From the NCBI GenBank assembly GCA_964016885.1, contig OZ024742.1, positions 122,884,001 through 122,948,000 on the forward strand: a DNA stretch of 64,000 nucleotides, given 5' to 3'. The notes below the pieces were generated by a model. That model saw only the letters and a program-made list of their open reading frames with translations, was not told the DNA's origin and searched no databases. Positions within the stretch are counted from its first letter, which is position 1; each line of letters starts with the position of its first letter. The position numbers and the translations under genes are program-made. This DNA is from Eledone cirrhosa (lineage: Eukaryota). This document shows positions 26,966 through 63,024 of this stretch, piece after piece.

Positions 26966-26984
26966 CAACAACACCAATAATAAT

Positions 26985-27170
26985 TGTTTCTACTTTAGGC
27001 ACAAGGCCAGCAAATTACCCAGTATATTACTGGTACTTTATTTTATCGACCCCGTAAGGATGAAAGGCAAAGTTAACCTCGGCGGGATTTGAACTCAGCC
27101 TGTAAAGGGACGTAACTATGCTAGAAAGCATGGCGTCCAACCCTCTACCGATACTGCCAATTCACCGCCC
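26985..27170 (-). mobile_element. full-length tRNA-derived SINE with 18-bp TSD
   Basis: Box A/B present; AACAACACCAATAATAAT duplicated at 26967-26984 and 27172-27189. Confidence 0.92.
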
Positions 27171-42287: not shown

Positions 42288-43658
42288 TTATAGACATATA
42301 TATGCAAATGCGTGCGTGTATATGTGTTTGTGTTTGTCTGTTAACCTACTTGATTCCAATCAAGGTATATGTTAGTAACATGGGCGTTCTATTGTGTGAT
42401 TGAAATATATTGTAACCAGAATAATTCCCGAATGACTTGTAAGGACACCGTATTCTCATACGGTGTTTCTTTGGCATTTTAGACCTGGCGGAACCCATCT
42501 CCTCTCCAGTTATGACTACAGCAGATTTCTTCCATATAATGGGAGAAGGAGTGAATGAATGGGAGTGAGAAAGATATAAAGGGGAAGAATCAGCCCCAGT
42601 TCTTGACTGGTGCTTGGTATTGAGCTCGAATGTATAAAAGGCAAAGTTGACTTCGGATGGATATGAACTCAGAGAGCAGAGAACTGGAACAAATACAGCA
42701 AGGCATTCTATCCGCCGTTGCTAGATCAATGACGTTATTCAAATGTGTCCTCTTTTTTCAACAATACGATGCCATTTGAGGGATATTTGTCAGTTACTTC
42801 TAGCAAGATAAGCAATTATATAGAGATCGTTAGATCGTTTGCAATCTTTATGTATTTAGATATAGTCGACTGACATTTCAGTGTTTTGGCAATGGTCCTT
42901 TTCAGTTTCAATGACTATAGACAAACAGACGACCACGCTTAGCGATAATCGCCAACGGAGATGTTACACACACAACCACGCACACAAAAACCTATTCAAA
43001 AAAACACACAAACGTATATAAATACTTGCATGCACTCGAACACGCACACATATTTAAACATTATGTATTAGATGTATCTGTACAAGTGTGCTAATAACTT
43101 TGTGTCGATTATATAGATACCAACACTTATACGTATCATATTTGCCCAGCAATTATAAAAACAACACACGCTCCTACAGACATGTATATAATAATAATAA
43201 TATAAAAAAATAATAAAGTAAGGAGCGCGGGACTGCGTACGGTTTATAACTTTTTATCGCACTAGTAAAATAAGTTGGATTACTTTGAATAAACAATGAA
43301 TGTTACATAATTTATCTACTAAATTTCGTGGCTGTTGATTAAATATATTTTGTTTATTTAAAAATTCACTTCTTTAAAATGTCTGAAATGTCAACACTTC
43401 CGGTTGGCGATCGCTTAAATAAATATACTAATTTTCTGTCACTAATTTTCTCCTAATGCAGTTTATATATAATATCGTATTTTTTTTATGTATCATGGAT
43501 TACGTTACTGATTACATAAGACAGTGTAACACAGTCTTCGTTCAATTTCTATGTATATTGTGAATTACGATTTTATGTGATGTATCATATTTACATGTAT
43601 ATATACTTGCGTATAATATCAATATACACACTACACATGCTAGCAGAAAACCACCCGA

Positions 43659-43700
<42 letters not shown>
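43659..43700 (+). repeat. (AAT)14 at the 3' end of Tx1 A
   Basis: Directly visible. Confidence 0.97.
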
Positions 43701-43702
<2 letters not shown>

Positions 43703-43949
43703 TTTCTTTATTAACCACAAGGGTTTACATAGAGTAGATATTAAGGACAGTAGAGGAAGATACAGGACGGTACAAATGGGTGTAAAAAACAAGAAACAGA
43801 GGATGTAATAATAGAACAATGAAAAATTTCCCCAATAGGGGGGAGACTTCCGAGGGACATTCGCGGAGAAAGCCCATTAAAAAGCGACAGTGACCCTGAC
43901 CACCAGGGCAAGTGCCCTCTCCCACTTTTACAGACACATACTCAGATTA

Positions 43950-46900
43950 GGCCCATTCACTCGGGCGATACTTGCTTCTCTCACCCATCTTTCAACAAAA
44001 TGCTGGGAAGAGAGCACTCCCTCTCTACTCTGATTTTCCTTTTCAAATGAAATTTGAAAAAGTTAATCAGGGCATCACCGAAGAGGTAAGTGCTCGTCTT
44101 CAGCCCTTTCAAACGTGTCCACCATACTATCTCTTTCGCCATGGCCACCAGACTGATAAAAACTGCCTGCCTTTCTCGGCTAAAGGAAGAGGGCGGGGAA
44201 ATCCTCACGATGGACTCAGCTGATAGCTGGATCCGTCCTACACGTGACAGCAGGTTTTCGATAAACCCACAAGTCAGCAATGCTCGGACCCTGGACGAGT
44301 GCGTGCAGGACGGTTTTGTCGCCCTGCGCGCATCTCGGACATGCCCGGCTGACGGCGCCTCCATGCCTGTAGAGTTTATCCCGAACTGGCAAAGCTCCTC
44401 GGTAGCACTGCCAGGCCAGGGATTTCTGGAAGTTGTCCACAGGCCCCGGCCCGAAAGTCCTTCCGAAGAGATTGGCTAGTTGATTTTCGTCGACGCCTAG
44501 AGTTTCTCCAAGTACTTCATCACTCTTCCCCTACACTAATCCTCTATAGAACGCCAAGGTGGAGTTTCCACCGATCACATTGCCCGATTGGTCGAGGGCT
44601 GTGAGCGCCTGAAGACATTCCAGTCTCCAAGCGCCCTCTCTCGGTCTTCGCTTGACCCAGGACTGCAGCTCCGTCAAGGAGACGAGCTGGGGAAAGACGC
44701 CTCTAGCAAACGGCGACCACACCTGATCACCGTCGAGGAAGAGGTGAAAATGTCGTAGCCTGAGCGCGTGTCTGCGCATCATCAGCCACGGCATTCCCAG
44801 CCCTCGACGTAGCGGGTGTTGACAGCAGATGGACCGCCTGACCATCGGAGCGCGTCCCTTCCACAAAAAAACGAAAGAGCAAACGCTCCAGCGCAGTCAG
44901 GCGGGGATTAGGACGAGGTGCGACGGTCAGGCGGTAGCAGATGACGGACGCGATATACGCGTTAGCCACCTCCGCTCGACCTTTCAGGGATAGCTTCCTC
45001 TCGGCTCATTTTTGGGTGAGAGAAGCCACCCTGCTTGTCACTAGCTTTTGTACGTCTGGAGATCCGAACAGAACCAGACCCCGAGCAATTTAACCGGTCC
45101 GTCCGTCCAGCGCCCGACGACGCTGTTGGACGGCATGGACCTGCCTCTCCAGGTGCCCAGCTGTAGGCCCACTTTTTTAATCCTGGTTGATCATTGCTCC
45201 TGTCACCTCTTCGTATTCTCTTAGTGTAGTGCCGATCGCCTCGATGTGTTTAGCGTTCGCCACCACTACGGTGACATCGTCCGCTATGCTGACACGGATC
45301 TTCCGCATCCTAGTTTGCGCGGGACCCCCCTCAACGTCTCCAGTTTTTGCAGTAATAGCTCGAGAGTCAATACGTACAAGAGAGACGAGAGGGGATATCC
45401 TTGGCGGACGGAGCGCATGATGTTGAACGATCCGAAAGGTGACCGTTCACTCTCACCACAGAGCAGATGTCGCTGTGCATGGCAGCGATCCAGCCTCTGA
45501 AGACGGGCCCAAATCTAGCCGCCCTCAGGACTGGCGCTAGGTAACGATGGTCGACCCTATCGAAGGATTTCGACTGATCTAAATTGATCAAGGACCCACC
45601 CGTGCCAGGTTCCCTAGCTACCCTGTCTACGATGTATCACATGAGGTGGAGGTTGTCGTGGATGGATCTGTCGGGAATGGCGCATGTCTGCGCCTCTCCC
45701 ACCAGACCACCAACGACAAGCGTCAACCTCTATTCTAGCACCTTGGCCAAAATCTTGAACTCTGTAGAGTTATGGGCCTAAAAATATCTATGTTATCCCC
45801 CTTGTTCGGATCCTTTTTCAGCAGCGCCACAGCTCCTCGGCTCACAGAGCTGAGAAATCTCCCGATCTGTAGCCAAGAGGCCTCCGAACAAGTCTGGCAT
45901 CTGTACGTAAAGTTCATATGGCAGACCATCCAAACCAGGCGATGTACCCCTTGTGCAGCCAGTCATTGCCTTCCGTACTTCAGCGGCTGTTATCGGCTTT
46001 TCGCAACACTCCGCCTCAGTGGACCAGAGCCGCGGCAATCCGTCGAGGTAGACACTAAAGTCCATCCCTCGACCCGGCCCGCGACCGCCCGAACAGTTGA
46101 GCGAAGTGTCGCTGAAAAGCTTCACACATTTGCCCAGGATCGAGTAGCATGCGCCCGTCGTGGTCCACCAAAGACCGGATCGTGGCTTTGATGCCACGAC
46201 GCGCCTCCGCCACTCGGGGCCATTGAAAGGCTTTCGTCCCCTCGTGTCTGTGAGCTCGCACCCTAGCTCTGACAACGCAGCCTTCGTGCTTTGCATTGAA
46301 GAATTGATCAAGGGCCGATTTCGCCGCAAGTACGTCGGTCGCGATGCCTTTGCTAAGGGCCTCGCGATGCGTTTGCTAAGCGCCTCGTCTAACTAATTCT
46401 CCCCTGCTCTATTTTTCTCTATTGCTAAAGCCTTACTAAACCTAATGGACTCTATTCTAATTCAACTTGTTGTTGACTATGGCCCCCGTCAACGCCCGCT
46501 TAACTAGTTCGCTAATCCGGTCTCTGTAGCCCTTGCGCGCTAGTAAGGACGCCTTTAGCTTCCAGTAGCCGGGTCCTCGTTTATGAAGCCTATATAAGTC
46601 AAGCACACAAATCACAAATTTGTGGTCCGTGTAGCTGACTATCTTGAATTATGGACAGCGTATGCTAGACCTATCTATTTCTCTAGAAAATACTCTATCT
46701 AGATATGATCTGGATGACCCTATACGATTTGTCCAAGTCCACATTGGCACATTCGGGAAATCCAATCGGTACCTGTCAGACAGTTCAAAACGCGTGAGCA
46801 GGCTGGTGAGGCTCTTGCACCCTCCTCCCCTATCCGCTTATCCCACACAGTCCCAGCGTGCCTCTAAGATCCCGTTCCAGTCGCCCACTAACACTAAAGA

Positions 46901-47298
46901 GCGGGACGTCCCAAGAAAGGACTCCAGACGCCGGAAGAAATCAGGCCGCCCTGCTCCTGTCGGGGCATAGACGGCCACTAGCCTGAAAGCTTGCCCGTCT
47001 CCGCTGGTCACGTCTAGCACCACCAACTTACCTTCTGGGTCCAGGAAGATGGCCCGTATGGCGAGTCCAAACCTCTCCGAAAAAGCACGGCAACTCCACC
47101 CCCGTTCCCGGACGGCTGGGAGATTCGTACACATCGTAGTCGCCGAAGATCGGTGCGAAGGCCCGTGCATCGGAGATTCTGGTCTCGCTGATGGCCACTA
47201 CATCTATGTTTAGTGTCCCGAGGTCGTTGAGCAGGTGGCCCTGCTTCCATGACGACCCAAAGCCACGCGCATTTATGCTGCCTATTGTGAGTGGTCAT
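43950..47298 (-). pseudogene. Tx1 A ORF2 (APE endonuclease, RT, C-terminal zinc-binding region), disrupted
   Basis: VAVYAP..LVGDWNGIL (APE); SPGLDGLPYELY; NLDQSKSFDRVDH (RT); CPRC..TVLHALVQ; a 1-bp loss disrupts the YADD codons near 45285. Confidence 0.88.
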
Positions 47299-47332
47299 GT
47301 TGAAATAGAGTGGAAAAGATGGGACGGACCAC

Positions 47333-49211
47333 TTACCTTACTTCTCGTAGAGGAAGGATGGTTTCTCCATCATTTTCACTGCTTGTGGCCTCCTCCGGAA
47401 GGATGTCCTTATAAATCCTCCTGGGGAGTGCTTGTCGGAAGTCTCCGATGTCTTTGGGGAATTTTTGTTTTAGTGTCATGTACGTTTTCTGTGTGATGCG
47501 AGTGATTTGTATGTGTGGAGGTCGTGTGAACTTTTGGGTTGTTGTGTAGTCTTTTTCTGTGATGCTGGTGTTGTGTTGGATGTAGTGTAATAATTGATTG
47601 TTGTTCAAATTTTATGCTGTGTAGTGTGTATCGTTTTGGTTGTTTTGTTTTGTTTGGGTCTGTTGAGGATTTGTTTCTGTTTCGCTTTTTGGTGACTTTT
47701 GTGGTGTTGGGTTTAATGATGGTGATGGCGTTGGTGTTTGTGGTGATGGGGTTGGGGACGCTGGTGTGGATGGTGGCATATATATTCTAACTTTTTTGAT
47801 TGATAGTTTATTTGTTTCCCTCTGTATTTTGTTTTCGGATAAGGAGGGAAGAGCATTTTTTCTTTTTTGGTTTCTTTTTTTCTTTTTTCCTGATACCGTT
47901 TCCCACTCCTCGTCGTCACAATCTGTCTCCAGTTTTGATAGGCCGGGGAGTGGAAAATCCTCCACAGGCCTTGGTTTTGGTTGGGCGTGGTGGATGCTGT
48001 AGGCACTGGTGCTTGTTCTGGCGCGTTGGGTGGTGGTGGTGTTGGTTTTGCTACTGATGCTGGTGTTGTTGCTGTTACAGTTGTTGCTGCCATCTCCGCT
48101 GCTGGTGGTGTTGATGGTTGAGTCACTGGGGTGTGTAAGAGATGTGGCCTCAACCTTTTAGCCTTAGGGCAGAAAGCCCTTAGGTGGGTTCCTTCACCAC
48201 AAACGACACACCTAGGCCTTCTGCCCACGACGATTGCGGTGAGGTGGCTGCCGTCAGTGAGGTCTATTACCTCTGGGATCTCCTCAATGCTTTTTTGGTC
48301 CGCTTGAATCAGGAGCTCCATCCCAGATCCGGACCAGTTCTCCTGCTTTTCTTTCCCTATTTCGATTATATTGGTGTTGGCTTCGATGCCGGCGAGGACG
48401 GCAGCTATTAGCCAGGGAATTTCGATGGCCGGTGGAAAGTGGGTCACCCTGATCTTCACGAGTCTCTGGCCACAATAGCTTGGGACGAGTGTGAAGTCAT
48501 CCCTTCTCAATGGGGCCATGGAGTGTTCTCTGGCCTCCTGTGGTGTTTCAAAGAACACGTCCACGGTTCCATATTTCTGCCCGCGTCTGATGTGGGTTTT
48601 TTTGCCCACACATGTCCCAAAGCATTTTGGATTTGGGACTCGGATTCCCGTCCACTCGGCGCGATTTTATGTTAATCGTCCGATAAGACACGGTGCATAG
48701 GCGCCGATGCCTCATTTTATTAGGTGTGTGTGTAGGGGGGGCTGACCCTGTACCCATCTTTCTTTACCATTTTTTTGGCTTCTTCTACTTTCTCCTGTGT
48801 TACCTGGAATGCTTCGCACTCTTTTGCTACTCTGGCAAAACTCAGGGTGGTTTTCTTAATTTCATTGTTGCTGTTGTTGTTATCGTTATTTTTGTTATTA
48901 TTAATTTCAGTTTCAGTTGTGATGGTGGTGGCGTCAGTGGTGTTCGGTATGGAAGAGTTCATTTTGGTTGAATTCATTTCGATATCACGAGTTTTTTCTT
49001 TTGTTTCTGTTGTCGCTGTGGTGGTGGTGGGTGTGGCGGCATTAACACCTGCATACATTGGTAATGGCGTGAAATGAGTGTCTGCCCGAGACAAATGAAA
49101 AATATTGCTACTGCTTATATTTTTAGTGTTGGCAAACGTAGTAATATTTACAATGGTAGTGTAGGTGTGAGGTGTTAGTTTGTGAGAAAGGTGTGACCCT
49201 GAGTCGTCCAT
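47333..49211 (-). pseudogene. Tx1 A ORF1 (RRM-like region and CCHC zinc knuckle), frameshifted
   Basis: Segments 48720-49211, 47713-48609, 47612-47965, 47333-47608; CVVCGEGTHLRAFC = C-X2-C-X4-H-X4-C. Confidence 0.85.
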
Positions 49212-49424
49212 GATTTTTCAAAGAAAAATCTTTGTTTGATAATTATAAAAGTTAAAATTTTGGGCTCAAGGCCCCAATCTGTTTGAGTGTACTTTTCAGA
49301 TAACAATGTATGTGCACTTATATACAGTTAACAATAAAATTTTCCATAAATGGCAATTTTAAACAACTGAAAATAACAAACCTCTGCGGAGCTCACGATG
49401 ATACGATTTACTACGTAGGTCGCC

Positions 49425-49475
<51 letters not shown>
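49425..49475 (+). repeat. (AAT)~17 spacer between Tx1 A and B
   Basis: Directly visible, one ACT variant unit. Confidence 0.97.
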
Positions 49476-49739
49476 GATTTCTTTATTAACCACAGGGGTT
49501 TACATAAAGTAGACATTAAGGACAGTGCAGGACAATGCAGGACGGTACAAATGGGCATTTCTGCGTGTAAAAAACAAAAACAGAGGATGTAACAAAAAAT
49601 AACAATGAAAAATTCCCCAATAGGGCGGAGACTTCGGAGGGACATTTGTGGAGAAAGCCCAGTAAAAAGCCACAATGACCCTGACCACCAAGGCAAGTGC
49701 CCTCTCCCAGTTTTCCACCTTTAATTTACAGATATATAC

Positions 49740-51715
49740 TCATAGTAGGCCCATTCACTCGGGCCATTCTTGCTTCTCTCACCCATCTTTCAACAAAATG
49801 CTGGGAAGAGAGCACTTCCCTCTCTACTCTGATTTTCCTTTTCAAATGAAATTTGAAAAAGTCAATCAGAGCATCACCGAAGAGCTAAGTGCTCGTCTTC
49901 AGCCCTTTCAAACGTTTCCACCATACTATCTCTTTCGCCATGGCCACCAGACAGATAAAAACTGCCTGCCCTTCCCGGCTAAAGGAGGAGGGCGGGGCAA
50001 TCTTTACGATGGACTCAGATGATAGCCGGATCCGTCCTAAACGCGACAGCAGGTGTTCGACATAAACCCACAAGTCAGCAATTTTCGGACACTGGACGAG
50101 TGCGTGCCGGACGGTTTCGTCGCCCTGCGCGCATCTCGGATATGCCCGGCTGACGGCACCTCCATGCCTGTAGAGTTTATCCCGAACTGACAAGGCTCCT
50201 CGGTAGCACTGCCAGGCCAGATATTTCTGGAAGTTGTCCATAGGCCCTGGCCCGAAAGTTCTTCCGAAGAGATTGCCTAGTTGATTTTTGTCCACGCCTA
50301 GAGTTTCCCCAAGTACGTCGTCGCTCTTCCCCTCCACTAATCCTCTATAGAACGCCGAGGTGGAGTTTCCACCGATCGCATTGCCCGATTGGTCGAGGGC
50401 TGTGAGCGCCTGAAGACATTCCAGTCTCCAGGCGCTCCCTCTCGGTCTTCGCTTGACCCAGGACTGCAGCTCCGTCAAGGAAACGAGCTGGGGAAATACG
50501 TGTCTAGCAAACGGCGACCACACCTGATCACCGTCGAGGAAGAGGTGGAGATGTCGTAGCCTGAGCGCGTGCCTGCGCATCATCAGCTACGGCATGCCCA
50601 GCCCTCCACGTAGCGGGTGTTGACAACAGATGGACCGCCTGAACATCGGAGCGCGTCCCTTCCACAAAAAGCGAAAGAGCAAACGCTCCAGCGCAGTCAG
50701 GCGAGGCTTAGGACAAGGTACGACGGTCAGGCGGTAGCAGATGACAGACGCGACGTACGCGTTAGCCACCTCCGCTCGACCTTTCAGGAATAGCTTCCTC
50801 TCCGCCCATTTCTGGGTGAGAGAAGCCACCCTGCTCGTCACCTCGTCACAGTTTTTGGCCGTCTGGAGGTCCGGACCGAACCAGACCCCTAGCAATTTAA
50901 ACGGTCCGTCGGACCTGCCTCTCCAGGTGCCGAGCTGCAGGCCCACTGACTTTTCCTGGTTGATCATTGCTCCTGACACCGCTTCGTATTCTCTTAGTGT
51001 AGTGCCGATCGCCTCGATGTGTTTGGCGCTCGACACCACTACGGTGACATCGTCCGCATATGCTGACACGGATCTTCCCTTCCTAGTTCGCGCGGGACTC
51101 CCCTCAACGTCTCCAATTTTTGCAGTAATGGCTCGAGAGTCAATACGTACAAGAGGGACGAGAGGGGACATCCTTGGCGGACCGAGCGCATGATGTTGAA
51201 CGGTTCCGACAGGTGACCGTTCACTCTCACCACAGAGCAGATGTCGCTGTGCATGGCAGCGATCCAGCCTCTGAAGACGGGCCCAAAGCCAGCCGCCCTC
51301 AGGACGGCCGCTAGGTAACGATGGTCGACTCTATCGAAAGCTTTCGACTGATCTAAATTGATCAAGGACCCACCCGTGCCAGGTTCCTTAGCTACCCTCT
51401 CTATGATGTATCCCATGAGGTGGAGGTTGTCGTGGATGGATCTGTCGGGAATGGCGCATGTCTGCGCCTCTCCCACCAGACCACCAACGACAAGCGCCAA
51501 CCTCTTTGCTAGCACCTTGGCCAAAATCTTGAACTCTGTGTTTAGCAGAGTTATGGGCCGGAAATTATCTATGTTATCCCCCTTGTTCGGATCATTTCAC
51601 AGCAGTGCCACCGCTCCACGGCTTACAGAACTGGGAATTCTCCCGTTCTGTTGCCAGTTGCAGTAGACGTCCGCCAAGAGGCCTCCGAACAAGTCTGGCA
51701 TCTGTACGTAAAGCT
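49740..51715 (-). pseudogene. Tx1 B ORF2 3' part (RT), disrupted
   Basis: NLDQSKAFDRVDH, SVRQGCPLS, SAYADDVTV. Confidence 0.9.
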
Positions 51716-53707
51716 GGTCGTCGGCTCTTCTAAGAGAATGTCTGAATATACTCTTCGATTGATGGTTCCTCCTAGGTCCCTGAAATCACCAACTGCGTTG
51801 GGGAATTTCGTTTTAATGTTTGTGTATTGTTTCTGTGCTATTTTTAGCAGTCTTATGTTAGTTGGCGTTTTGAGTGGTGCTGGTATTATGTAGTCCTGTT
51901 GTGAAATGTCTGTGTGTTGAATTATGTAAGTCATTAGTTTCTTGTTGTGTGTATTTATTGCCGTGCATTTGTTTTTCTGGGGGTGGGGTGTGGTTCTGCT
52001 ATTTTCTTGTCGTTGTTGCTGGGTGTGTGTGTTTTTTTGTTGTGTTTGCGATGTTGGTGCTTGTGGTGGTGGTGTTGAAGGTGTTGTTGGCGGTGGGGTT
52101 GTCGCCGGTGGTGATGGTGATGCTAGTGTGGGTGGTAATGGTGTTGGTGGTGTTGCTGCTGTGGGTCTCTTTGCAGTAGACTTTACCCTTTTCTCATTTC
52201 TTTCCTCCCTTTTCAAAGGCGACGATGCGCTGCTTCTGCGTTTGTGCCTTCTTACGACCTTTTGCCATCCCTCTCCCACCTCACACTCCATGTCTGATTC
52301 TGTGAGGTCGGGGAGGGGTACCAGCTCCACTCTTTCACTTGTTGTTGTTGGTGATGTTTGCACTGAAGTCTCTGTTGCAGCTGCATTTGGTATTGCTGTT
52401 GTTGTTGTTAATATTTCCACTGCTGCTGCTGTTTTTGATTTCCGTGGCGTGGGTATGGGTGCCACGGACCTATCGTTCCTGGTTGCCGCTTGTCCTGTTG
52501 CTGGTAGCCGTGGAGCCGGATTCGGAAGGAGGGGGGTTTTCTCCTTCCTCAGGGTCTTCTCGTTGCAGAAGGCCCTGAGGTGAGTCTTCGATCCACAGCG
52601 AAAGCATTTCGGGCGTTTGCCCTCAACACTTATGGGCAGTTGAGTGCCGTTATCGAAGTCTATCACATCCGGGATAGCTTCGATGCACTCCTGGTTGGTT
52701 TGGATTAGCATCTCAATGGAGGTGCCGACCCAATCTTCTCTTACTTTTTTCTGTACTTGCAGTACAGTTGTTTTGTCCTCGATTCCGACGAGGACAGACG
52801 CGGCCAGTCAAGAAGGGGCCATTCCGGGGGGGGGGGGGACGTGGGTCAGTTTGACCCTCACAATTTTTTGCCCGCAGAAGGAGGGCACCAACACCATTTC
52901 CTCGCTCCTTAGGGTCACTACGGATTGGGCCTTTGCCTCCTGGGGTGTGGCAAAAAGTACGTCTACGGTGGCATATTTTTTGCCTCGGGTGATGTGCGTT
53001 TTCCGCTGCCACACAGACCCCAAGGCTTTTTGTATTTGGGCCTCTGTGGCTCTTTCCACCCTACGGGATTTTGTACTTACTGTACGGTACGTGACCGTAC
53101 AGTGCTCTTGGGTTTCGAAAAATTTTTCCGCTGCCTTGCAGATTGCTCGGTGTCCATTTTTTGTCACCATCTTCTTCGCTTCCTCTAATTCCTCATTTGT
53201 TATGAGGATTGTTTCCAAGTTTTTCGCAATACCTGCAAATGAGATTGGTTTTTCTTTGCTGCTGTTGTTGTTGTTGTCGTCAGAGCTGCTGTTACTTTTG
53301 TTGTTGCTGCAGGTACTACGACTACTGCCTTCGCCGCTGTTGCTGTGGTTGTTGTTGGTGTTGCTGCTGCTAATGCTGTTGTTGTTTATGCTGCTGGTGA
53401 TGCTGTTGCGGCTGCTACTATTGTTTTCATTGTCACTGATGCTGTTGTTATTACGGCTGCTACTGCTATTATTCCTGACGTCAGACGAATGAACTGGGTT
53501 TTCGTATTTCCCGCACACCTGTTTCGTCGCTGTCGTCTTCGTCGTGGAGAAACCTTGCACGCTTTGCACGAGACTTTTCTTTTCTTTCGTCGCTTGCGAA
53601 AGAGAAGGGAGGGAGAGAGACAATCTTCTCTCTGCTGTAGTGATGATTGAGGAAGAAGAAGACGGAATGAGTGGGAGTGACCTATGCAAATTCTTTTTCG
53701 TAGCCAT
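51716..53707 (-). pseudogene. Tx1 B ORF1, one frameshift at or near a poly-C run
   Basis: ORFs 52808-53743 (MATKKNL..) and 51623-52711; CFRCGSKTHLRAFC knuckle. Confidence 0.85.
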
Positions 53708-53923
53708 GTTGACTTTTTTGTTTAAAATAAATATTGGGTACAAAACCCCAATAAGCAGTTATTTAACCCCGAAGGGCCAAATAACGGGCAGAAAGACCCC
53801 TCTCACGAAGAGGAGGGTGTTTTTGTCTACAAGTTGGACTAAGTTTTAAACAATTTACAATTGTTAAAGCGTTCAAAATGTACAGTACCTTACAGAGCCG
53901 AGCCTCAGTCAACCATAGCATTC

Positions 53924-53956
<33 letters not shown>
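53924..53956 (+). repeat. (AAT)11 spacer between Tx1 B and C
   Basis: Directly visible. Confidence 0.97.
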
Positions 53957-53958
<2 letters not shown>

Positions 53959-54231
53959 TTTCATTTATTGGCCACAAGAGCCGACATATAGGGGACAATA
54001 CAAAAGACTGGGACAGTGGGGTTTTACAGAAAAATCGAGTAAACAATATGAATAACAATAACAAAGTAACAATAACAAAGTAACAATAAAGTAACAAGAA
54101 AATTACAAGAAGAATTCGCCAATAGGGGGGATGACCTCCAGGGTTCGCTCAGGTACCCCAACAATCCTGAATGACCCGACGCTTCGAGAGCACCCTGGAA
54201 GGGCACCCCTCTCCTCCTCAAATTTACCTAC

Positions 54232-57200
54232 CTACAGCCGCCTGACCAGAGTAAGCCCACTCACACGGGCCATTCTCGCCATATTCACCCACCTTTCAGC
54301 AAATGTACTGCGGAACAGCACTTCCCTCTCCACCCACACCTTCGTTTCCAAGTGAAGCTTGAAAAGGTTGATGAGGGATTTACCGAAGTGAAAAGTGTCT
54401 GTCTTCAGTCCTTTCAACCTCATCCACCATACAACCTGTTTCGCTACTGCCACCAGACAGAGGAAAATTGCCTGCCCTTCCTGGCCAAAAGAAGGCGGCG
54501 GGTCGATCTTCACTATAGACTCGGCCGATAGCCGGATCCGTTCTACACGCGACAACAGCTGTTCAATATAACGTCACAAGTCAGTAATGCATGGACACTG
54601 GACGAGTGCGTGCAGAACTGTTTCGTCGTTCTGCGCGCATCTCGGGCAGGTCCGTTTGACAGCACTTCCGTGCCTGTAGAGTTTATCTCGGACTGGCAGT
54701 GCCCCCCGGTAGCACTGCCAAGCGGGAGATTTTTGGAAATTATCCATCGTCCCCGGCTCGAAAGCCCTTCGGTACAGACTGGTTAGTTCGACTTCGTTGA
54801 CTCCCAGAGCCTCTCCGAGTGCGTCGTCGCACTTTGCCACCACTAATCCTCTATAGAACTCGAGAGTGGAAGTTCCACTGACCGCATTGCCAGCCTGGTA
54901 GAGTGAAGTGAGTGCCTGGCAACATTCTAGATGCCAGTCACCCAGTCTCGGTCTCTTCTTGACCCAGGATTGCAGCTCAGTCAAAGAAATGAGCTGCGGA
55001 AAGGCCCGTCTCACAAACGGCGACCACACCTGTTCACCATTTAGGCAAAATATCTGGAGATGCCGCAGCCTCAGCGCGTGCCTTCGCATCATTAGCCACG
55101 GCATGCCCAGCTCTCCACGTAGAGGGTGCTGGCAGCAGATGGAACGCCTCACCAGCGGAACCTGACCCCTCCACAAGAATTTTGAAGAGGAGCTGCTCCA
55201 AGATGGCGAGGCGTGAACGGGGGCAAGGGACGACGGTTAGACGGTAGTAGATGACGGACGCGATGTACGCGTTCGCCACCTCCGCCTGACCTTTCAGTGA
55301 TAGCTTCATCCCAGCCCATTTTTGGGTGAGACTGGCTACCCTGCTCGTCATCTCGTCCCAATTCTTATCCACCTGGAGGTCTGGCCCGAACCAAACCCTA
55401 GCAACTTTACTGGTCCGTCCGTCCAGCGCCTAACGACGCTGTTGGACGGCATGGACTTGCCTCTCCAGGTGCCGAGTTGCAAGCCCACCGTCTTTTCCGG
55501 GTTAAGTTTTGCTCCCGTCAACTTTTCATATTCCTCCAATAAGTTGCCGACCACATCGATTTCTGAGGTGTCCGACACCATCACGGTGATGTCGTCCGCA
55601 TAAGCCGACACAGCCTCTCCGCGTCCCGGTTCGATCGGGATGCCCTGCAACAGCTCCAGCTTCCAAAGTAAAGGCTCGAGAGTCAATACGTACAGAATGG
55701 AAGAGAGAGGGCACCCTTGACGCACCGATCGGGAGACCTGAAACGGTTCCGAGAGGTTGCCATTAATTTTGACCATCGAGCAGGTGCCGCTGTGCATTGC
55801 AACGATCCAGCTTCTGAAGACGGGGCCGAAGCCAGCCGCCTTGAGGACAGCCTCCAGGTACCGATGGTCGACCCTATCGATTGCTTTCGATTGATCTAAA
55901 TTGATCAGAGACCCACCGAAGCCAGGTTTACACCCTACCCTCTCTATGATGTATCGCATTAGGTGGAGGTTGTCGTGTATGGACCTGGTCGGGATGGCGC
56001 AAGTTTGCGCCTCCCCAACCAAATCACCGACGACAAGCGCCAACCTCTTCGCTAACACCCTGGCCAACATCTTAAACTTTGTGTTGAGCAGAGTTATGGG
56101 CCTGAAATTGTATAATGTGTCCCTCTTGTTCTCGTCTATCCTTATCAGCGTCACTACGAACTGGGAATACTCCCGTTTTGCTGCCAGTTGCAGTAGAGGA
56201 AATCGAGGAGATTGAAGAACAAGTCTGGCATATTTACGTAAAGCTCGTAGGGCAGAACATCTAAACCGGGTGACTTGCGCCTTATGCAGCCGACAAGGGC
56301 ATCCTGAATCTCGGCTGAAGTAATTGGCCTTTCGCAGCGCCCAGCGTCAGCGGTCGAGAGTTGCGACCAGCCATCAAGGTAGAGACTGAAGTTCGCCACC
56401 ATCTCTGACGCGCCCCTTCCCCCGAACAACCGAGCAAAATGTTGGCGAAAGGCGTCACTCATCCGCTTGGAATCCCTCAGCTCGTGTCCGTCTCAGTCCG
56501 TCAAAGACCGAATCGTGGTTTTTATACAACGATGCGCCTCTGCCACGCGGGCACATCGAACAGCTTTGGTTCCCTCGTTTCTCAGAGCACGCGCCTTAGC
56601 TCTGACAATGCAACCTTCGTGTTTCGCATTGAAGAAATGGTATAATGCTATTCTCGCCGCTAGCACGTCAGTTGCAATGCCACTACCAATAGCCTCGTCT
56701 AACTTATCTACCAACTCCCCCACCTTTCTATTTTTCTCTAACGCTACTTATTTGCTAAACTATATCGACATTACTCTAATCTCTCTTTTGAGAGCCCCAC
56801 CATCTCTTGTTGACGACTCCCCCTGTCAGCTTTTTCTTAACTAAATTGTTGACCTGGTCCCTGTAAGCCTTACGTGCCGGAAAATTGCATGTTTAACTTC
56901 CAGTAACCAGGTCCTAACGAACGCGTCTTATCTAGGTCTACCATACACATCACAAACTTGTGATGTGAATAGGCGACCGTTTCAAAACGTGGACAGCTTA
57001 CACTATTTCTGTCTATTTTCCTAATGAATATCCTGTCTATATACGATCTAGATGACCCTATACCGTTAGCCCAGGTCCACACTGGCGCATTAGGGAAATC
57101 TAGTCGGTACCTGTAAGATAGTTGGAACTGGCTGATCAGGTTCTTGAGGCTTTTGCACACCCCGCTCCTATCGAATATTCCCACACAGTCCCAGCGTGCG

Positions 57201-57630
57201 TCTAAGATGCTGTTCTAGTCCCCGCTAACAGTAAAGGGCGAGACGTGCCCAGAAAGGCTTCCAGGCGTCTAAAGAAGTCCTACCGTCCTTCCCCAGTAGG
57301 AACATAGGCGGCCACCAGTCTAAAGGCACCACCTTCGTTATTGTTCACGTCCAGGACCAACAACTTCCCGTCCGGGTCCCGGAAGATCGACCTTATCAGG
57401 CCTTTCATAAACAGCACTACCACTCCGCCTCCCATTTCCGGCCGGCTAACAGATGCAAAGATCTGATAGTAGTCGAAAATCGTGGCTAGTCCGCGCGTGT
57501 CGGAAATCCTGGTCTCGCTGACGGCAATTACATCCATTACTAGAGACCTGAGGTCATTGAGAAGGTGACTCTGCCTCCAGGACGATCCCAGGCTTCGAAC
57601 ATTTAAACATCCTACTCTTAATACGGCCAT
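54232..57630 (-). pseudogene. Tx1 C ORF2 (APE, RT, CCHC), disrupted
   Basis: MAVLRVGCLNVRSLG..VIAVSET; RSYIDRIF..SHHKFV..GPGYWKLN; VRQGCPLS; AYADDITV; CPRCAQNDETVLHALVQC. Confidence 0.9.
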
Positions 57631-57662
57631 GTTGGCAGGTTAAAAAGAGAGAGAGGAAAGGT

Positions 57663-59589
57663 TTACTTACCTTCCGGGCTCTTGTGAAGGTCGGGTTGTT
57701 CGTCCTCCATAGTTGGTGGGGTTTCTTTTGGGAACCCCTTTAAAAGTCTTGAAGTTGATTTTACGTTCGGTGTTCCCACGTCCCGAGGAAAGCTGTCTCG
57801 TATTTCTTTGTATAATTCGATCGACATTCGCACCAGAACCGAATCTTCCGGCACGCGAAATGTGCTCGATTTAAAAATGCCCCCCTCTTTTCACTTCGTG
57901 CTACGAGGGCCATCAGTTCTTTGTTGGCTCTCCTGGCGAGCACGAAGTTTTGTATGTTTTGTTGGTGTGATTTTATTTGTTTGCGTGGCTGTGGTGTTGA
58001 TGGTTTTGGTGGTGTTGTTTCGGTTGTGTCTGTGTATATTTGTTCTTTCGTCTGTTTAGGTTGTTTGCGTTTTGGAGATTCTGGTCATGGTGATGGTGGT
58101 GTTGATGTTGGTGTTATTTGAGAGATGTTTGCGTGGGTGGTGTCTGCGTTTTTATTGTGGGTGATGTTGTGCTTTGTTGAGATTTTTTTTCTTTTTGTGT
58201 TTCCTTTTTTGTATTTTGGGGGATTTTGGTTTTCCCTCATCTTCACTACTGGTAGATGAGGAGTCTGTGTCTGTAAGTGTGCCTGTATGTATGTTTATGG
58301 TATTATTGGTGTGTGTATTTTTCGGGGGAGGGAGAATTTGACAGCTTTCCTCGTTTCCCCCCTGGGTGGTCAATGTTGGTGGTGGTCTTTCTATTGATGT
58401 TGTTGTTGGTGGTTTTGCCGGTGCTGGTGTTGGTTGAGGTCCTCGCCCCGGCGTCGGCAGCAGTGGAGCCTTTCGACCCCTTGTCTCTTTCAGCAGTTGA
58501 GGGCAGAAGGCTCGCAAATGGGTTTTTTCCCCACAAACAAAACACTGTGGCCTTTGGCCTTCGGTCATAATGTGAATTACCGTCCCATTCTAAAGGCGGA
58601 TGTGGTCCGGGATTGTCTTCACATTCTCGGGCCTGATCTGGAGAAGGATCTCCAGATCAACCCCGGACCAGTCCTCTCTGGCCGTTCTGGTCACTTCTAT
58701 AGGGACTGTATCGGTCCCCTCCACAATCACACATCCCAGAAGCCACCACATGTCAAGTCCTGGTGGCATTCTGGGAATGCGGAGACGGGCCGTTCTTTTC
58801 CCCATGTGGGAGGGGTACATTAAGACCTAGCTGGTTTTGCAAGGAGTCATAGCGTGTTTCATAGCAAGGGTTTCTGACTCGAAAAACACCGAAATGGTGC
58901 CGTACTCTCTGCCCCTCTCTATGTATTCGGTGTCTTCTCTGATGCACATCAGCGCGACTTCGACATCTGCTTGTGGGATTAAAGCTGCCCTTTTGGTTTG
59001 TGCTGAAATGCATCTATAATGCACCGTTCTGCGCTCCACTGCCTCAATAGCTTCTACCGGGATATTTAAGTTGGACCAGGTTTGCTCTTGCTTGATGAGC
59101 TTCCATGCCTGGGCCAACTTTTCATCTTTGTTTGAGAGGTCCATGTTGAAGCATGGCCTCTTTTTTGCTGCTGCCGCAGCGAAAGTGTTCTTCTTGTTTT
59201 CGTTGGGGGTGTTGTTGTCGTTGTCATTGTTCTTGTTGATGTTGTTATCACTGTCGCTGTTATCATTGTTGTCTTTGTTGCCACCGTTGTTCTCGGTGCA
59301 GTTGGTATTGTTGCTGTTGGTGTTGTCGCTATTTGTTTACAGATTAGTGGTGTTGATATTGTTGTTGCATTTGTTATTTTTTTTTGTTATCTGTATTTTG
59401 GTTGTCGCTGTTACTGTCATTTTTTTCAAAATTAGAGTTCTTATTGGTATCATTGGTGTCTTTCTTTACATTGTTTGTGGTGGTGTTTGTGTTATCAATT
59501 TGTGTTAATTTCTCTGTAGCGCTCCTCTCAACTTCTACGTCGTTGTCGCACGACAGCTGACATATCGCTGGGGGGCGTGGCTCAGCCAT
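57663..59589 (-). pseudogene. Tx1 C ORF1, frameshifted
   Basis: MAEPRPP start, Asn/Thr-rich N-terminus, YIERGREYGTISVFFES, CFVCGEKTHLRAFC knuckle. Confidence 0.85.
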
Positions 59590-59794
59590 TTTTTTTTTCT
59601 CTGTAAATGTTTTAACATGTAAAAAAAGTTCAAATATTTGGGCCAAAAGGCCCAAATATTATACTTTCCCCTTCACAGGGCAACGTCTAAGGGTTTATAT
59701 CCCTTACACGACAAGAAATATTTAACAAATAATTTTAACAGGCAGATAAAGCGACTTACTGGGAGCGAGCCAAAAAGACGTCCGAACAGACCAC

Positions 59795-59795
<1 letters not shown>

Positions 59796-59852
<57 letters not shown>
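59796..59852 (+). repeat. (AAT)19 between Tx1 C and the R4 element
   Basis: Directly visible. Confidence 0.97.
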
Positions 59853-59853
<1 letters not shown>

Positions 59854-60973
59854 TCTAAGGGAATCACATGATTGGATGATCAAAGTCGTTTTGTAACACG
59901 AAAGCATCAACAGATCATATTCCATTACAAAAGATGCACAAAGATACAGTAATGGACTACAAATTTCAGAAGTCCCATTTACTGCTGAAATGGAAAACAC
60001 AGAAAAAGCAAAGCAGGTAAAAGTAACTGCAAAGAAAGAACTGCTACAGAAACTGGCTAAGAAATGGCAAGAAAAGCCTCTGTATGGAAAATACCCAGAC
60101 CGAGCTAATAATCCTGATGTTGACAAAACTTTAACCCATCAGTGGTTGGCATCCTCTAGACTGAAATCGGAGACTGAAGGACTGATTATATCAGCACAAG
60201 ATCAGTGTCTGCCAACAAAAAATTACCAAGCCAACATAATAAAAAATGGATGCAGCCCATTATGCCGTGTATGCAAAAAACAACCAGAGACCATTGACCA
60301 TATAATTTCAATGTGCAGTCCTATAGCTCCAACCGAATACCTAAACAGGCATGACAGAGCTGCACAATACATACATTGGATAATGTGTACGCATTTTGAC
60401 CTGCCCCATCAAAAGAATTGGTGGGAGCATCAACCACCTCCCATACTTGAAAAAGATCACATCTCAATCCTGTGGAACTTTAGCATCCAAACAGACCGAA
60501 AAATAGATGCAAATAGACCTGATATAATATTGAAGGACTTTAAAAAGAGGGTATGCCTGCTAATTGATATGTCTGTTCCAATAGACAAGAATGTATCTAT
60601 AAAAACATTTGAAAAATTGAGCAAGTATAAGGACCTGGAGATAGAAATTGGAAAAATGTGGAAATTGAGAACTAAAACAATACCAGTGGTTGTAGGCGCT
60701 CTGGGAATGATGCCTAAGGGGTCTATTGATTACTTATCGCAAATCCCAGGAAACCCGCGTATAGGAGAAATACAAAAGATAGTACTAATGGGAACTGCCC
60801 ATATACTAAGGAAGATTCTGTCAATATAAGTACATCACAAGTCTAAACACTAAAGATGCATGTGTGAGTATGTATGTTCTTTCTTGAACATGGCGGACCT
60901 TGTTGTCTCTTGAGGTCACTCGTTGTGACTTGGTGATAACTCGTATGAACATAAAGCAAGATAAATGCAACTG
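59853..60973 (+). mobile_element. 5'-truncated R4/Dong-clade RLE non-LTR retrotransposon
   Basis: Flanked by (TAA)n on both sides; encodes CCHC and PD-D endonuclease; ~145-bp 3'UTR. Confidence 0.88.
59990..60829 (+). CDS. C-terminal part of R4-type ORF: CCHC finger and restriction-like endonuclease
   Basis: CRVCKKQPETIDHIISMC, RHD, NRPDIILKD..LIDMSVP..KLSKYKDL..PVVVGALG; open for 279 codons but only a fragment of the element ORF. Confidence 0.85.
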   Translation: MENTEKAKQVKVTAKKELLQKLAKKWQEKPLYGKYPDRANNPDVDKTLTHQWLASSRLKSETEGLIISAQDQCLPTKNYQANIIKNGCSPLCRVCKKQPETIDHIISMCSPIAPTEYLNRHDRAAQYIHWIMCTHFDLPHQKNWWEHQPPPILEKDHISILWNFSIQTDRKIDANRPDIILKDFKKRVCLLIDMSVPIDKNVSIKTFEKLSKYKDLEIEIGKMWKLRTKTIPVVVGALGMMPKGSIDYLSQIPGNPRIGEIQKIVLMGTAHILRKILSI

Positions 60974-61001
60974 TAATAATAATAATAACAATAATAATAA
61001 T

Positions 61002-61055
61002 TGTTTCTACTTTTGGCACAAGGCCAGCAATTACCCAGTGCATTACTGGTACTTT
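61002..61055 (-). mobile_element. SINE 3' fragment whose (ATT)n tail is the right boundary of the array
   Basis: TGTTTCTACTTTTGGCACAAGGCCAGCAATTACCCAGTGCATTACTGGTACTTT. Confidence 0.88.
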
Positions 61056-61373
61056 AGTAATCTTTTCTCGTCAATGTTTCGCCAGATCTTATGTTCACTT
61101 ATATCACTGACTTGATTTTTCACCCTTTACGTTGCTTTACCATTCTTGTTTCTTTATATGTCTTTATTTCTCCACCCAATTCTTTTTATCCCTATAACTG
61201 TATTTACTTATTGCTCGTGCTGGTCTGAGGTATATGATCTTTAATGCGAAGAAATACCTATGATGGCCAGAAGATCACTGTTGACGGATAGTAATCGACT
61301 TCTCTGTAATCGACTCCTCTCCCCAAATTGTTGCTCTTCTGTCAAAATCAGAAACCATCATTTCATGATTTGA

Positions 61374-61592
61374 AGGGCAGTGGATTGCCAGAGTCATTAG
61401 AACGTCGGACAACTAATTAGCTTTATTTCTCCCAGGTCTCCATCTTTTGAGTTCAAATCCTGGGGAAATCATGTTTGACTTTCATCTTTTCGAGCTCGAT
61501 GAAATATATTAAAATTCAAGTTCAGGGTCGATTTACTCGAAATACCGTTCCTCTCAAATTGCACACATTGTGCCTGAATTCGAGATCATTAT
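61374..61592 (+). mobile_element. diverged tRNA-derived SINE
   Basis: GAGTTCAAATCC box B, TTTCATCTTTTCGAGCTCGAT core, ends TTGTGCCTGAATTCGAGATCATTAT. Confidence 0.7.
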
Positions 61593-63024
61593 CTTTTGGC
61601 TTTACCACTTGCCAAAAGAAAATTTTGGACGCTCTGTGATTTGTGTAATTGAAAATAGCGTTAGCAATATTTGCCGACAATTTCTGAAAAGTGTCGCGAA
61701 GAGAAGGCCCGTGCTACGTCTCCCTGTGATACTTTTTTAATGTGTTACACTGATGGCTATCCTGTATTTGTGTATATTAGGAACTACATTGTTTATTGTC
61801 GCTTTCAGTTTTTAAGAGAGTAGTTTGTGATATGAGCGATGTATTCCTCTTATTCCAAGGATGTTCTGCAATAACATAGTGGCTTTCGCATTATCTCAAG
61901 CTGGAAGGTTTTCCTGTGATGTGATACAATAATGATTGATGGACAGGCTAATTATTTATTGGAATTTTGTCATAAACTGAATCATATAAATTTGAATTTT
62001 CCCCATTGTCATTATTATGAGAACAGAATCTCAATATTCTGAGGCGATTCCGGCAAACCAAGCCAGCACTGGCATTTATTTTTGCAGTAAATCTTCTTAT
62101 TGTTGCTTCAATTCATATGTCTCGCCTCGCACCTGGTGACCAGAAGCATACAGGATATAGACAAACGATAACTTAGAAACAACTACACAACACGGTGAAA
62201 CGTTTTGACGCGAGCATAAGCATTTCGAATATGCATGTGTTAATATATGGATAGTGTTTTTCGATATGAACAGTTTTAAAATTATGAATATACATATGAA
62301 TTAACGTAGCTTGCATTATTATCCATTTTGTATTACTGAAGTAAATTTTATATGCATTCTGCTTCACTTTCTAGGTGCTGTATGTCCTCTAAGCATTGAT
62401 TTCGTATATGTCGATAATATTATGACAGAGAAAGTATAACATTTTTTACATGGTTTGAATTCAGGATATAATGCAAGTGAAGCTAGCTACAACAATAAAT
62501 TTGGCATTTCGAGAAATATCGTGTTATCCTGTGAAAGCTACAGGATTGGTTTCAGACATGTTGCTCCGGAGACTAATAGCCTTCCGAATTTGTCACGAGG
62601 GAAATCAGGGTATGTCATAAAGTTGTGTCTTTGTGAGTTTGTGTGTGTGTACGTGCACATTTTGAGAAATTAAAACATGAATGTGAACCTAAATTTCTAA
62701 AGATGAAGGGAAAATGAAGTTTCCCTCCATATATTTTTTTCTTTTTGCTTTGTCTCTTTTGTTAGCAACGTTGAGTATAGTCTTAAACTTATATATATAT
62801 ATGTATATCGGTGAAACATATGCTATAATAATTTAGAAATATTTCACCTAGACACCAAGACCGATATTACAATATTTGTAGCCATGAATAACAATCGTGA
62901 GCTGACGAATGACATATTTTTAAATATTTCTCAGAAAACTGAATAGATTATTTATGAATCTAAGGCTCATTTAATAGAGCAAATTAAAAATCGTCATGAA
63001 CAGATGACGAAATTTCCTGTTTAT

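What the first reader, a model, noticed from the sequence alone, without database searches (positions are those of the whole stretch)
43659..61055. 17-kb retroposon array built inside one (AAT)n microsatellite: candidate (TTA)n-targeting Tx1 family and a multi-clade guild
Seen: three different Tx1-type LINEs, an R4-type LINE and a SINE end lie end to end, and every junction is a near-pure (AAT)9-19 tract with no other spacer. Tx1 and the SINE read toward (ATT)n; R4 reads toward (TAA)n. The 5' end of C abuts an AAT tract that is not a Tx1 tail, so the repeat looks like a target and not only a tail. Known: Tx1-clade families are often sequence-specific (Kibi TC repeats, Koshi TTC repeats, Keno U2, Mutsu 5S) and R4-clade Dong targets TAA repeats. 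Inference: APE- and RLE-type elements converge on one microsatellite, each insertion leaves new target on both sides, and arrays grow themselves, possibly seeded by a SINE tail. I know of no described (TTA)n-specific Tx1 family but could not search.
Basis: partly seen in the sequence, partly recalled or inferred. Interest (0 to 1): 0.85.

Follow-up and report, generated by a model that had tools for sequence, protein, structure and literature searches.

The report
Octopus retrotransposons that target ATT microsatellites
Several jumping-gene families in this genome, likely an octopus, sit almost always inside (ATT)n simple repeats, where they stack head to tail with unrelated retroelements into long arrays, likely because each insertion leaves new target sequence for the next.

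Summary
In detail: three L1-group (Tx1-type) LINEs, a Dong/R4-like fragment and a SINE end are joined only by (AAT)9-19 tracts. The pattern is genome-wide.

Of 87 other full-length copies, 86 start right after (ATT)n. Of 23 5'-truncated copies, 17 abut ATT repeats or an ATT-led duplication, against 1 of 24 for a CR1-like control family with the same ATT tail (background 1-2%). Five truncated A/B copies carry 13-18 nt target-site duplications that include non-repeat bases, so the target existed before insertion.

Full-length copies never show such duplications (0 of 46) and have longer upstream tracts. This suggests transcripts carry upstream repeats, as proposed for Drosophila R1.

The guild includes at least four Tx1-type families, three Dong-like families in the opposite orientation, and a SINE whose 3' end and duplication signature resemble the Tx1 elements. 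One other array also grew by tandem duplication.

Ten literature searches found no (ATT)n-specific Tx1 family, but Repbase and Dfam could not be searched. Tx1 membership by tree, enzyme activity, spanning reads and an empty allele remain untested. Verdict: a new variant of known microsatellite-targeting retrotransposons.

The parts
43659..43700 (.). (AAT)14 tract: tail of element A plus remaining target; left edge of the array
43701..49424 (-). Tx1-type LINE, family A, full length but broken by frameshifts and stops; ORF1 pieces about 47600-49210, ORF2 from about 47290
   Evidence: 90.8% to a natural full-length A copy; nearest fetched copy 94.3% in ORF2
49425..49475 (.). (AAT)11-ACT-(AAT)5 tract between the 3' end of B and the 5' end of A
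49476..53923 (-). Tx1-type LINE, family B, both termini present, with an internal deletion of about 1.5 kb (end of ORF1, APE, start of RT) near 51715
   Evidence: intact relatives have ORF1 about 700 aa and ORF2 1139 aa
53924..53956 (.). (AAT)11 tract between the 3' end of C and the 5' end of B
53957..59795 (-). Tx1-type LINE, family C, full length but broken by frameshifts and stops
   Evidence: RVT_1, zf-RVT; 92% to another full-length C copy
59796..59852 (.). (AAT)19 tract between the 5' end of C and the truncated 5' end of D; not the tail of either
59853..60973 (+). 5'-truncated Dong/R4-like LINE (D): C-terminal CCHC and restriction-like endonuclease region, ORF 59897-60829, and 3' UTR
   Evidence: the 975-aa ORF of a longer copy matches only R2 structures; RLE motif read by eye
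60974..61001 (.). (TAA)9 tract, shared tail of D and of the SINE
61002..61056 (-). 3'-terminal 55 nt of a 184-nt SINE with A-box-like and B-box-like motifs; its last 25 nt resemble the Tx1 3' ends

Best explanation
This is a nested array of retrotransposons that sit in (ATT)n/(AAT)n repeats, likely built by repeated target-primed insertion of a Tx1-type LINE lineage (families A, B, C, E) whose APE endonuclease is predicted to nick the AAT strand. SHOWN: copies are flanked by the repeat genome-wide; truncated copies carry 11-18 nt target-site duplications beginning with ATT (once ATC); Dong/R4-like families and a SINE occupy the same tracts. INFERRED: (1) The APE nicks the AAT-reading strand opposite the start of an ATT unit, and the freed ...AATAAT-3' end pairs with the RNA's (AUU)n tail and primes reverse transcription. 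(2) The second strand is cut about 11-18 nt downstream, which gives the duplications. (3) Full-length RNAs likely carry some upstream (AUU)n, so the cDNA end anneals to the target and gives uniform ATT|G junctions with longer tracts (about 60% for this step). (4) Every insertion leaves repeat on both sides, and any ATT-tailed element supplies new target, so arrays feed themselves; unequal crossing-over can enlarge them further. (5) Dong/R4-like elements use the same repeat with an unrelated restriction-like endonuclease and read the other way. (6) The SINE is likely mobilised by the Tx1-type machinery.
For: 5'-anchored non-self copies with >=2 ATT units at the junction: C 29 of 29, A 28 of 29, B 29 of 29; the queries held no ATT tract. 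3'-anchored copies followed to a full-length 5' end: 32 of 32 after ATT (16 C; 14 A/B; 2 A/B; some are the same copies as above). Truncated copies with a non-Tx1 flank, curated by hand: A/B 17 of 21, C 0 of 2, total 17 of 23, against CR1-like control G 1 of 24 (Fisher p 6e-7) and background 1.2-2.0%. Duplications with non-repeat bases: 5 of 21 truncated A/B copies (L133, L136, L312, L313, L319; 13-18 nt) and 3 of 17 E copies (L282, L291, L302; 11-13 nt), against 0 of 46 both-ended full-length copies (p 0.002). Median upstream tract 33 nt in 58 full-length against 12 nt in 21 truncated A/B copies (p 1e-6; 18 nt and p 4e-4 when zeros are dropped). Intact ORF2 has APE, RT and zf-RVT domains; its best solved relative is L1 ORF2p (E 3e-50). 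A, B, C and E form one clade (SH-aLRT 99, quick tree). SINE: at least 10 of 70 copies show 10-20 nt duplications starting with ATT, and its 3' end resembles the Tx1 ends. Upstream neighbour of 90 5' ends: another Tx1 3' end in 28, a SINE end in at least 12. Precedent: melanogaster-type R1, with precise full-length junctions, duplications on truncated copies, and tandem R1 arrays built through the duplication (PMC2718515, passages and section 18).
Against: 6 of 23 truncated A/B/C copies and 4 of 17 truncated E copies have no ATT flank; 5 A/B/C copies are fused to neighbours by deletion or otherwise unscorable, and 3 longer truncated E copies are also not ATT-led. Samples are the top 30-40 hits per search, so they favour well-preserved copies. 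No biochemistry, RNA data, spanning read or empty allele. No ribozyme or promoter was found that would place the RNA start upstream. The tract-length contrast could also come from preferential completion in long tracts or from age. The SINE is looser: most of its copies in the window itself lack upstream ATT, and the 70-copy sample was drawn mostly from beside Tx1 elements.
Confidence: 0.85

Rival explanations
1. The (ATT)n is only part of the element: a head and tail carried on the RNA, inserted at ordinary sites.
For: Full-length copies always begin ATT|G and have longer upstream tracts than truncated ones, so some upstream repeat may be RNA-borne. Tail variants appear to be inherited between copies.
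Against: Truncated copies, which have lost any head, are still ATT-led in 17 of 23 cases; five carry duplications with non-repeat bases that start in the repeat. The ATT-tailed control G shows 1 of 24. 28 of 90 5' ends sit directly in another Tx1 tail.
Confidence: 0.04
2. No sequence-specific nuclease is involved. Microsatellites are fragile or slip-prone, breaks arise there, and any RNA with an (AUU)n tail primes by base pairing, with or without the APE.
For: Tail and target are complementary by nature. The SINE also uses short ATT sites, including the same non-microsatellite site in family A twice (L232, L238). Activity was not tested.
Against: The CR1-like family has the same ATT tail yet is not targeted (1 of 24). 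Duplications of 11-18 nt in a fixed register suggest staggered cutting. The APE reading frame is intact in young B copies. Other abundant microsatellites (TA, TG, TTC) are not used directly: next to TTC runs the junction still has ATT units (L070, L083, L102).
Confidence: 0.07
3. The array is an assembly join through AAT repeats, or arrays arise only by tandem duplication.
For: No record spans the array. The C4:222.06-222.13 Mb array holds ten near-complete B units differing by only 4-78 substitutions in 6 kb, with a repeated upstream fragment, which points to duplication or an assembly effect there.
Against: The window's units are different families, each 2-6% from its nearest fetched copy, so duplication cannot make them. 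The tracts are under 60 nt. The same junction types recur at more than 100 loci on many contigs.
Confidence: 0.04

Closest known systems
Kibi (TC)n, Koshi (TTC)n and crocodilian (TTCC)n/(TTTC)n Tx1 families (PMC4494074 passages and section 15; PMC3812793 passages)
   Same: APE-type, L1-group elements that insert specifically into a microsatellite; the >20% flank criterion of PMC4494074 is far exceeded here.
   Different: The target here is (ATT)n/(AAT)n, which none of the passages read lists for Tx1; the host is a mollusc; at least four families share the site. The tree figure and supplements of PMC4494074, which list more targets, could not be seen.
Dong, DongAg, DongBg (TAA-repeat targets; PMC3812793 and PMC3774820 passages)
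   Same: Element D and families F and H: R2-like RT, C-terminal CCHC and restriction-like endonuclease region, (TAA)n tail, 5' ends often at TAA tracts. Dong-R4 is reported as abundant in cephalopods (PMC13282606, PMC10294476, PMC8967140).
   Different: D itself is ordinary. What is not in the passages read is the sharing of its repeat with an APE-type lineage. No HDV-like ribozyme was detected in two long D copies, whose true 5' ends were not established.
Drosophila R1 in 28S rDNA (PMC2718515 passages and section 18)
   Same: APE-type; tandem arrays formed by insertion into the duplication left by an earlier copy; melanogaster-type R1 has precise full-length junctions attributed to upstream target on the RNA, and duplications on truncated copies.
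   Different: R1 is another clade with a unique rDNA site. Here the target is a dispersed trinucleotide repeat that the elements and other families regenerate.
SINEU / Tx1-Mar of crocodilians (PMC4494074 passages)
   Same: A SINE that shares target preference with Tx1 families, likely trans-mobilised by them.
   Different: Here the SINE has a tRNA-like head (A/B boxes read by eye) and the shared target is a microsatellite; the pairing is inferred from about 25 nt of 3' similarity and the duplication signature.
Octopus L1-Tx1 families in repeat annotations (PMC13282606: part 1 of 3 of the text, word search of the whole text, one supplement)
   Same: L1-Tx1 (80 families, 56 Mb) and Dong-R4 (51 families) are annotated in Octopus vulgaris, so related sequences are probably already in libraries.
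   Different: The word 'target' does not occur in that paper's main text; no target preference is described there.

Membership tests
Tx1 clade (L1 group) | ORF2 with N-terminal APE, RT and C-terminal zinc finger | tested here: met
   Intact B copy L194: Exo_endo_phos E 2e-12, RVT_1 E 2e-27, zf-RVT E 3e-8
Tx1 clade (L1 group) | RT and APE closer to L1 than to other non-LTR groups | tested here: met
   Best PDB hits are human L1 ORF2p, E 3e-50; R2 E 7e-21. Only these two groups appeared among the hits.
Tx1 clade (L1 group) | Two ORFs; ORF1 with a CCHC zinc knuckle (feature recalled, not from a call) | tested here: met
   ORF1 about 700 aa with C-X2-C-X4-H-X4-C, overlapping ORF2; the same motif is in A and C. 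No significant Pfam hit for ORF1.
Tx1 clade (L1 group) | RT groups with named Tx1 families (Tx1L, Keno, Kibi, Koshi, Mutsu) rather than other L1 lineages | not testable with these tools
   No named Tx1 reference came; the tree (quick method) has only unnamed relatives
Tx1 clade (L1 group) | Target preference (>20% of flanks, criterion of PMC4494074) | tested here: met
   86 of 87 full-length and 17 of 23 truncated copies
Tx1 clade (L1 group) | Endonuclease cleaves the target in vitro | not testable with these tools
   Bench test; the single-sequence fold was unusable (pLDDT 38.6)
Dong / R4 clade (element D) | Single long ORF with R2-like RT and C-terminal CCHC plus restriction-like endonuclease | tested here: met
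   969-975 aa ORFs; all 5 PDB hits are R2 proteins; CCHC and PD..D..K pattern read by eye
Dong / R4 clade (element D) | Inserts in (TAA)n | tested here: met
   About 6 of 12 followed copies end 5' at a TAA tract, 2 ambiguous, 4 not (automatic and noisy boundaries); about 11 more truncated copies beside Tx1 elements do (biased sample)
Dong / R4 clade (element D) | RT tree with named R4/Dong elements; 5' HDV-like ribozyme | tested here: inconclusive
   No reference sequences for a tree; Rfam gave no ribozyme hit in L430 or L431, and their true 5' ends are unconfirmed
tRNA-derived SINE mobilised by this Tx1 lineage | Pol III A/B boxes, 3' end shared with the partner LINE, same insertion signature | tested here: inconclusive
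   Boxes by eye only, no Rfam hit; about 18 of 25 terminal nt match C by eye; duplications of 10-20 nt starting with ATT; no statistical or experimental test

The most novel reading that the evidence does not exclude
An undescribed octopod Tx1 lineage has evolved (ATT)n specificity, converging on the repeat long used by Dong/R4 elements. It transcribes upstream repeat into its RNA to make precise full-length insertions and mobilises an abundant octopus SINE. Together these families form a self-feeding guild that makes its own target and builds multi-clade arrays at thousands of sites. Intact B copies make the APE testable as a trinucleotide-repeat-specific nicking enzyme.
Probability: 0.4. Interest if true: 0.75.

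Novelty: new variant of a known kind. Interest (0 to 1): 0.6.

Why it matters
Microsatellite-specific LINEs are known, but how an APE recognises a simple repeat is poorly understood (PMC3812793 says so). This genome holds intact, young B copies (ORF1 about 700 aa, ORF2 1139 aa) with a very strong target preference, so the question can be tested directly. An APE element and an RLE element using the same repeat in one genome is a clean case of convergence. The targets are renewed by the elements' own tails, which links three conspicuous features of octopus genomes: many LINEs, many SINEs and many AAT microsatellites. It also warns that AAT markers and repeat annotation in these genomes are entangled with retroelements. 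The SINE-Tx1 pairing, if right, names a partner for an abundant SINE family.

Tried and rejected
Sequencing runs: 8 runs listed, 4 laid. No record spans the array and no joint skips it, so neither long-read support nor an empty allele was obtained. X3 and X5 are one sample and match the unique flanks with 0-2 differences, so they may be the source and are not independent. Run X1 (another organism label, share 0.08) has contigs about 97-99% alike to parts of B, C and D; this hints at the families in a relative but says nothing on flanks.

Ribozyme search: Rfam on 43000-62000 gave 3 chance-level hits, and a home-made HDV descriptor found none in the 5' ends of A, B and C.

The APE fold from a single sequence failed and was not used. 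The ESM Atlas, homolog searches and cluster look-up gave no Tx1-named reference. The only species-named hit was an Argonauta hians protein, 57% identical.

Metagenome scan: 80 loci, best-segment identity 23-47%; only 2 hold an (AAT)4, so there is no sign of ATT targeting in distant relatives. The careful tree did not finish; the quick tree is reported.

Automatic boundary calling over-extended into shared flanks and was replaced by reference-only alignment and hand curation. Rows dropped before the truncation count: internal deletions and inversions; L310 (a tandem of the 96-nt 3' end); L135, L140, L141, L156 and L158 (fused to another Tx1 or SINE); L150 (unresolved); 16 of 29 copies and 9 of 29 that were not followed upstream; E rows L283, L287 and L299.

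Earlier scan notes: 3 look-ups, nothing found. Literature: 10 searches, none showing an (ATT)n/(TAA)n-specific Tx1 family; one search returned mostly irrelevant papers.
Full report
OBSERVATION. The array is as described. Five AAT tracts of 9-19 units separate four LINE copies and a SINE end between 43659 and about 61056, with no other spacer. A, B and C lie on the minus strand and end in (ATT)n; D lies on the plus strand and ends in (TAA)n. The rest of the window has one comparable tract. A and B are 88.8% alike over their 3' 2.2 kb but share almost nothing 5' of ORF2; C is 72-75% to both. The window is at C3:122.88 Mb of a 3.0-Gb animal assembly. An Argonauta hians protein at 57% identity and my recall of octopus SINEs point to an octopod.

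WHAT THE ELEMENTS ARE. Intact B relatives are about 6.0 kb, with ORF1 of about 700 aa carrying a CCHC knuckle and an overlapping ORF2 of 1139 aa. ORF2 has APE, RT and zf-RVT domains, and its closest solved relative is human L1 ORF2p. The window's B copy lacks 1.5 kb including the APE; A and C are full length but broken. A fourth family, E, turned up among neighbours. A, B, C and E form one clade with one unnamed protein at 78% identity, sister to unnamed proteins at about 40% (quick tree, SH-aLRT 99). No named Tx1 sequence was available, so 'Tx1-type' rests on layout, L1-group affinity and target preference. D belongs to a family with a 969-975 aa ORF whose PDB hits are all R2 proteins. Two more Dong-like families (F and H, about 40% amino-acid identity to D) occur in the same orientation as D. 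First-look candidate counts were 1525-2435 for the termini of A, B and C; these are not copy numbers but suggest thousands of copies.

IS THE REPEAT A TARGET? I searched the genome with terminal stretches that held no ATT tract and read the flanks of the top 30 loci per search. Among non-self full-length 5' ends, >=2 ATT units lie at the junction in 29 of 29 C, 28 of 29 A and 29 of 29 B copies; the exception is an ATT tract with one substitution. All 29 non-self C 3' ends are followed by ATT. Copies found by their 3' end and followed upstream gave 32 full-length 5' ends, all after ATT; some are the same copies as above.

TRUNCATED COPIES. These are the key test, since they cannot carry a head. 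After dropping internal deletions and fusions (listed under Tried and rejected), 17 of 21 A/B and 0 of 2 C copies abut ATT repeats or an ATT-led duplication; one of the 17, L313, begins ATC-ATT (curated by hand). For E the count is 10 of 17, with 3 more at another element's 3' end and 4 with none. The control is a CR1-like family (motifs; clade name from recall) that also ends in (ATT)n: 1 of 24 visible 5' ends meets the same criterion (Fisher p 6e-7). Background is 1.2-2.0%. Five truncated A/B copies and three E copies carry duplications of 11-18 nt that include non-repeat bases. This shows that the site existed before insertion and places the first nick opposite the start of an ATT unit.

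MECHANISM. The simplest reading is target-primed reverse transcription from an APE nick in the AAT strand, with a staggered second cut. One contrast needs explaining. None of 46 both-ended full-length copies shows a duplication with non-repeat bases (one of the 46 is a B-C fusion), against 5 of 21 truncated ones (p 0.002). Upstream tracts are also longer on full-length copies (median 33 against 12 nt). Stage and Eickbush report the same contrast for melanogaster-type R1 and explain it by upstream target sequence on the RNA annealing to the target (PMC2718515, section 18 and passages). R2 elements with upstream self-cleavage behave alike (PMC3774820 passages). I put about 60% on this step here; no ribozyme was found. 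Each family has a 5' UTR of about 200-216 nt, with a stem-loop predicted some 45-60 nt before the likely ORF1 start.

THE GUILD AND ARRAY GROWTH. Of 90 5' ends, 28 sit directly in another Tx1 tail, at least 12 in a SINE tail (a pattern count that misses some) and 2 in a CR1-like tail. Among 309 distinct tracts in the first 243 loci, a sample chosen by Tx1 hits, the far sides are dominated by Tx1 ends, SINE ends and the 3' ends of Dong-like families D and F. About 6 of 12 followed D copies end 5' at a TAA tract. The SINE shows 10-20 nt duplications starting with ATT in at least 10 of 70 copies, including two insertions of different length at the same non-microsatellite site of family A. Its last 25 nt resemble the Tx1 ends. 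It is looser than the LINEs: most of its copies in the window lack upstream ATT.

ORDER OF EVENTS AND A SECOND ROUTE. In this array, nearest-copy identities are A 94.3, C 94.5, B 96.2 and D 98.0%. This fits B and D entering internal tracts after A and C, but it does not prove the order. The SINE's outer edge is only a 7-nt ATT-like site, so seeding by its tail is plausible but unproven. A second array at C4:222.06-222.13 Mb holds ten near-complete B units only 4-78 substitutions apart, followed by older B, A and other Tx1-type units, so tandem duplication (or an assembly effect) adds to insertion there.

ARTEFACT CHECK. No record spans the array, so its exact adjacency is unconfirmed. An assembly join is unlikely: the units are distinct families, each 2-6% from other copies, the tracts are under 60 nt, and the same junction types recur at more than 100 loci.

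LITERATURE. Tx1 targets in the passages read are Tx1D, U2, (TC)n, (TTC)n, (TTCC)n/(TTTC)n, Mariner, Harbinger and LTR elements, with U5, 5S and satellites named in a figure legend (PMC4494074; its figure and supplements were not visible). TAA repeats are listed only for Dong, DongAg and DongBg (PMC3812793 passages). Cephalopod repeat papers list L1-Tx1 and Dong-R4 as abundant, and the passages read give no target preference (PMC13282606; PMC10294476; PMC8967140). Passages of PMC4640811, PMC4758252, PMC8869645, PMC4824008 and PMC3747384 added nothing on this target or on the octopus SINE's partner. Ten searches found no (ATT)n-specific Tx1 family. Repbase, Dfam and subscription papers, including Kojima and Fujiwara 2004, could not be read, and a Repbase entry noting this target is quite possible.

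VERDICT. It works like Kibi, Koshi and R1, with a target not found in print for this clade and shared with Dong-like elements. Novelty: new variant of a known kind. Interest 0.6.

Noticed in passing
G000:C4:222061274-222138700 (L216-L223): Head-to-tail array of at least 13 Tx1-type units; ten near-complete B units differ by 4-78 substitutions and all ten have open ORF2 frames of 1195-1204 codons. Looks like a LINE turning into a satellite by tandem duplication.
   Followed up: partly
window 43701-53923; L194, L207: Families A and B share ORF2 and the 3' UTR (about 91%) but have almost unrelated 5' UTR and ORF1, which suggests a 5'-half swap.
   Followed up: partly
L151-L170, L224-L243: An unusually high share of copies is full length (16 of 20 followed C copies), and many carry large internal deletions with both termini kept; the searches favour well-preserved copies.
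   Followed up: partly
L238 (opposite strand, about 3550-3770) and L232: Two SINE insertions of different length at the same internal site of family A, each with a 19-nt duplication: a possible hot spot outside microsatellites.
   Followed up: partly
L310: The last 96 nt of an A/B element are repeated at least 16 times in tandem, with no ATT tract between units.
   Followed up: no
window 10478-11781 and 24095-25444: Two older, degenerate Tx1-type ORF2 remnants (65-75% DNA identity) with no ATT tract at their visible ends.
   Followed up: partly
window 26940-27222: A SINE with an 18-nt duplication inserted between an (AAT)7 tract and the end of a Dong-like F copy: a small version of the same guild.
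   Followed up: partly
5' UTRs of A, B, C (about 49250-49290, 53725-53760, 59630-59665): Each has a G/C-closed stem-loop with a short loop shortly before the ORF1 start, despite otherwise unrelated UTRs.
   Followed up: partly
L160/L011, L235/L139, L150: Copies with an inverted internal segment, resembling twin-priming inversions of L1 (term recalled).
   Followed up: no
L262: The CR1-like control family (474-aa open frame) has an (ATT)n tail that is itself used by Dong-like F and by Tx1 elements (also L069, L110).
   Followed up: partly
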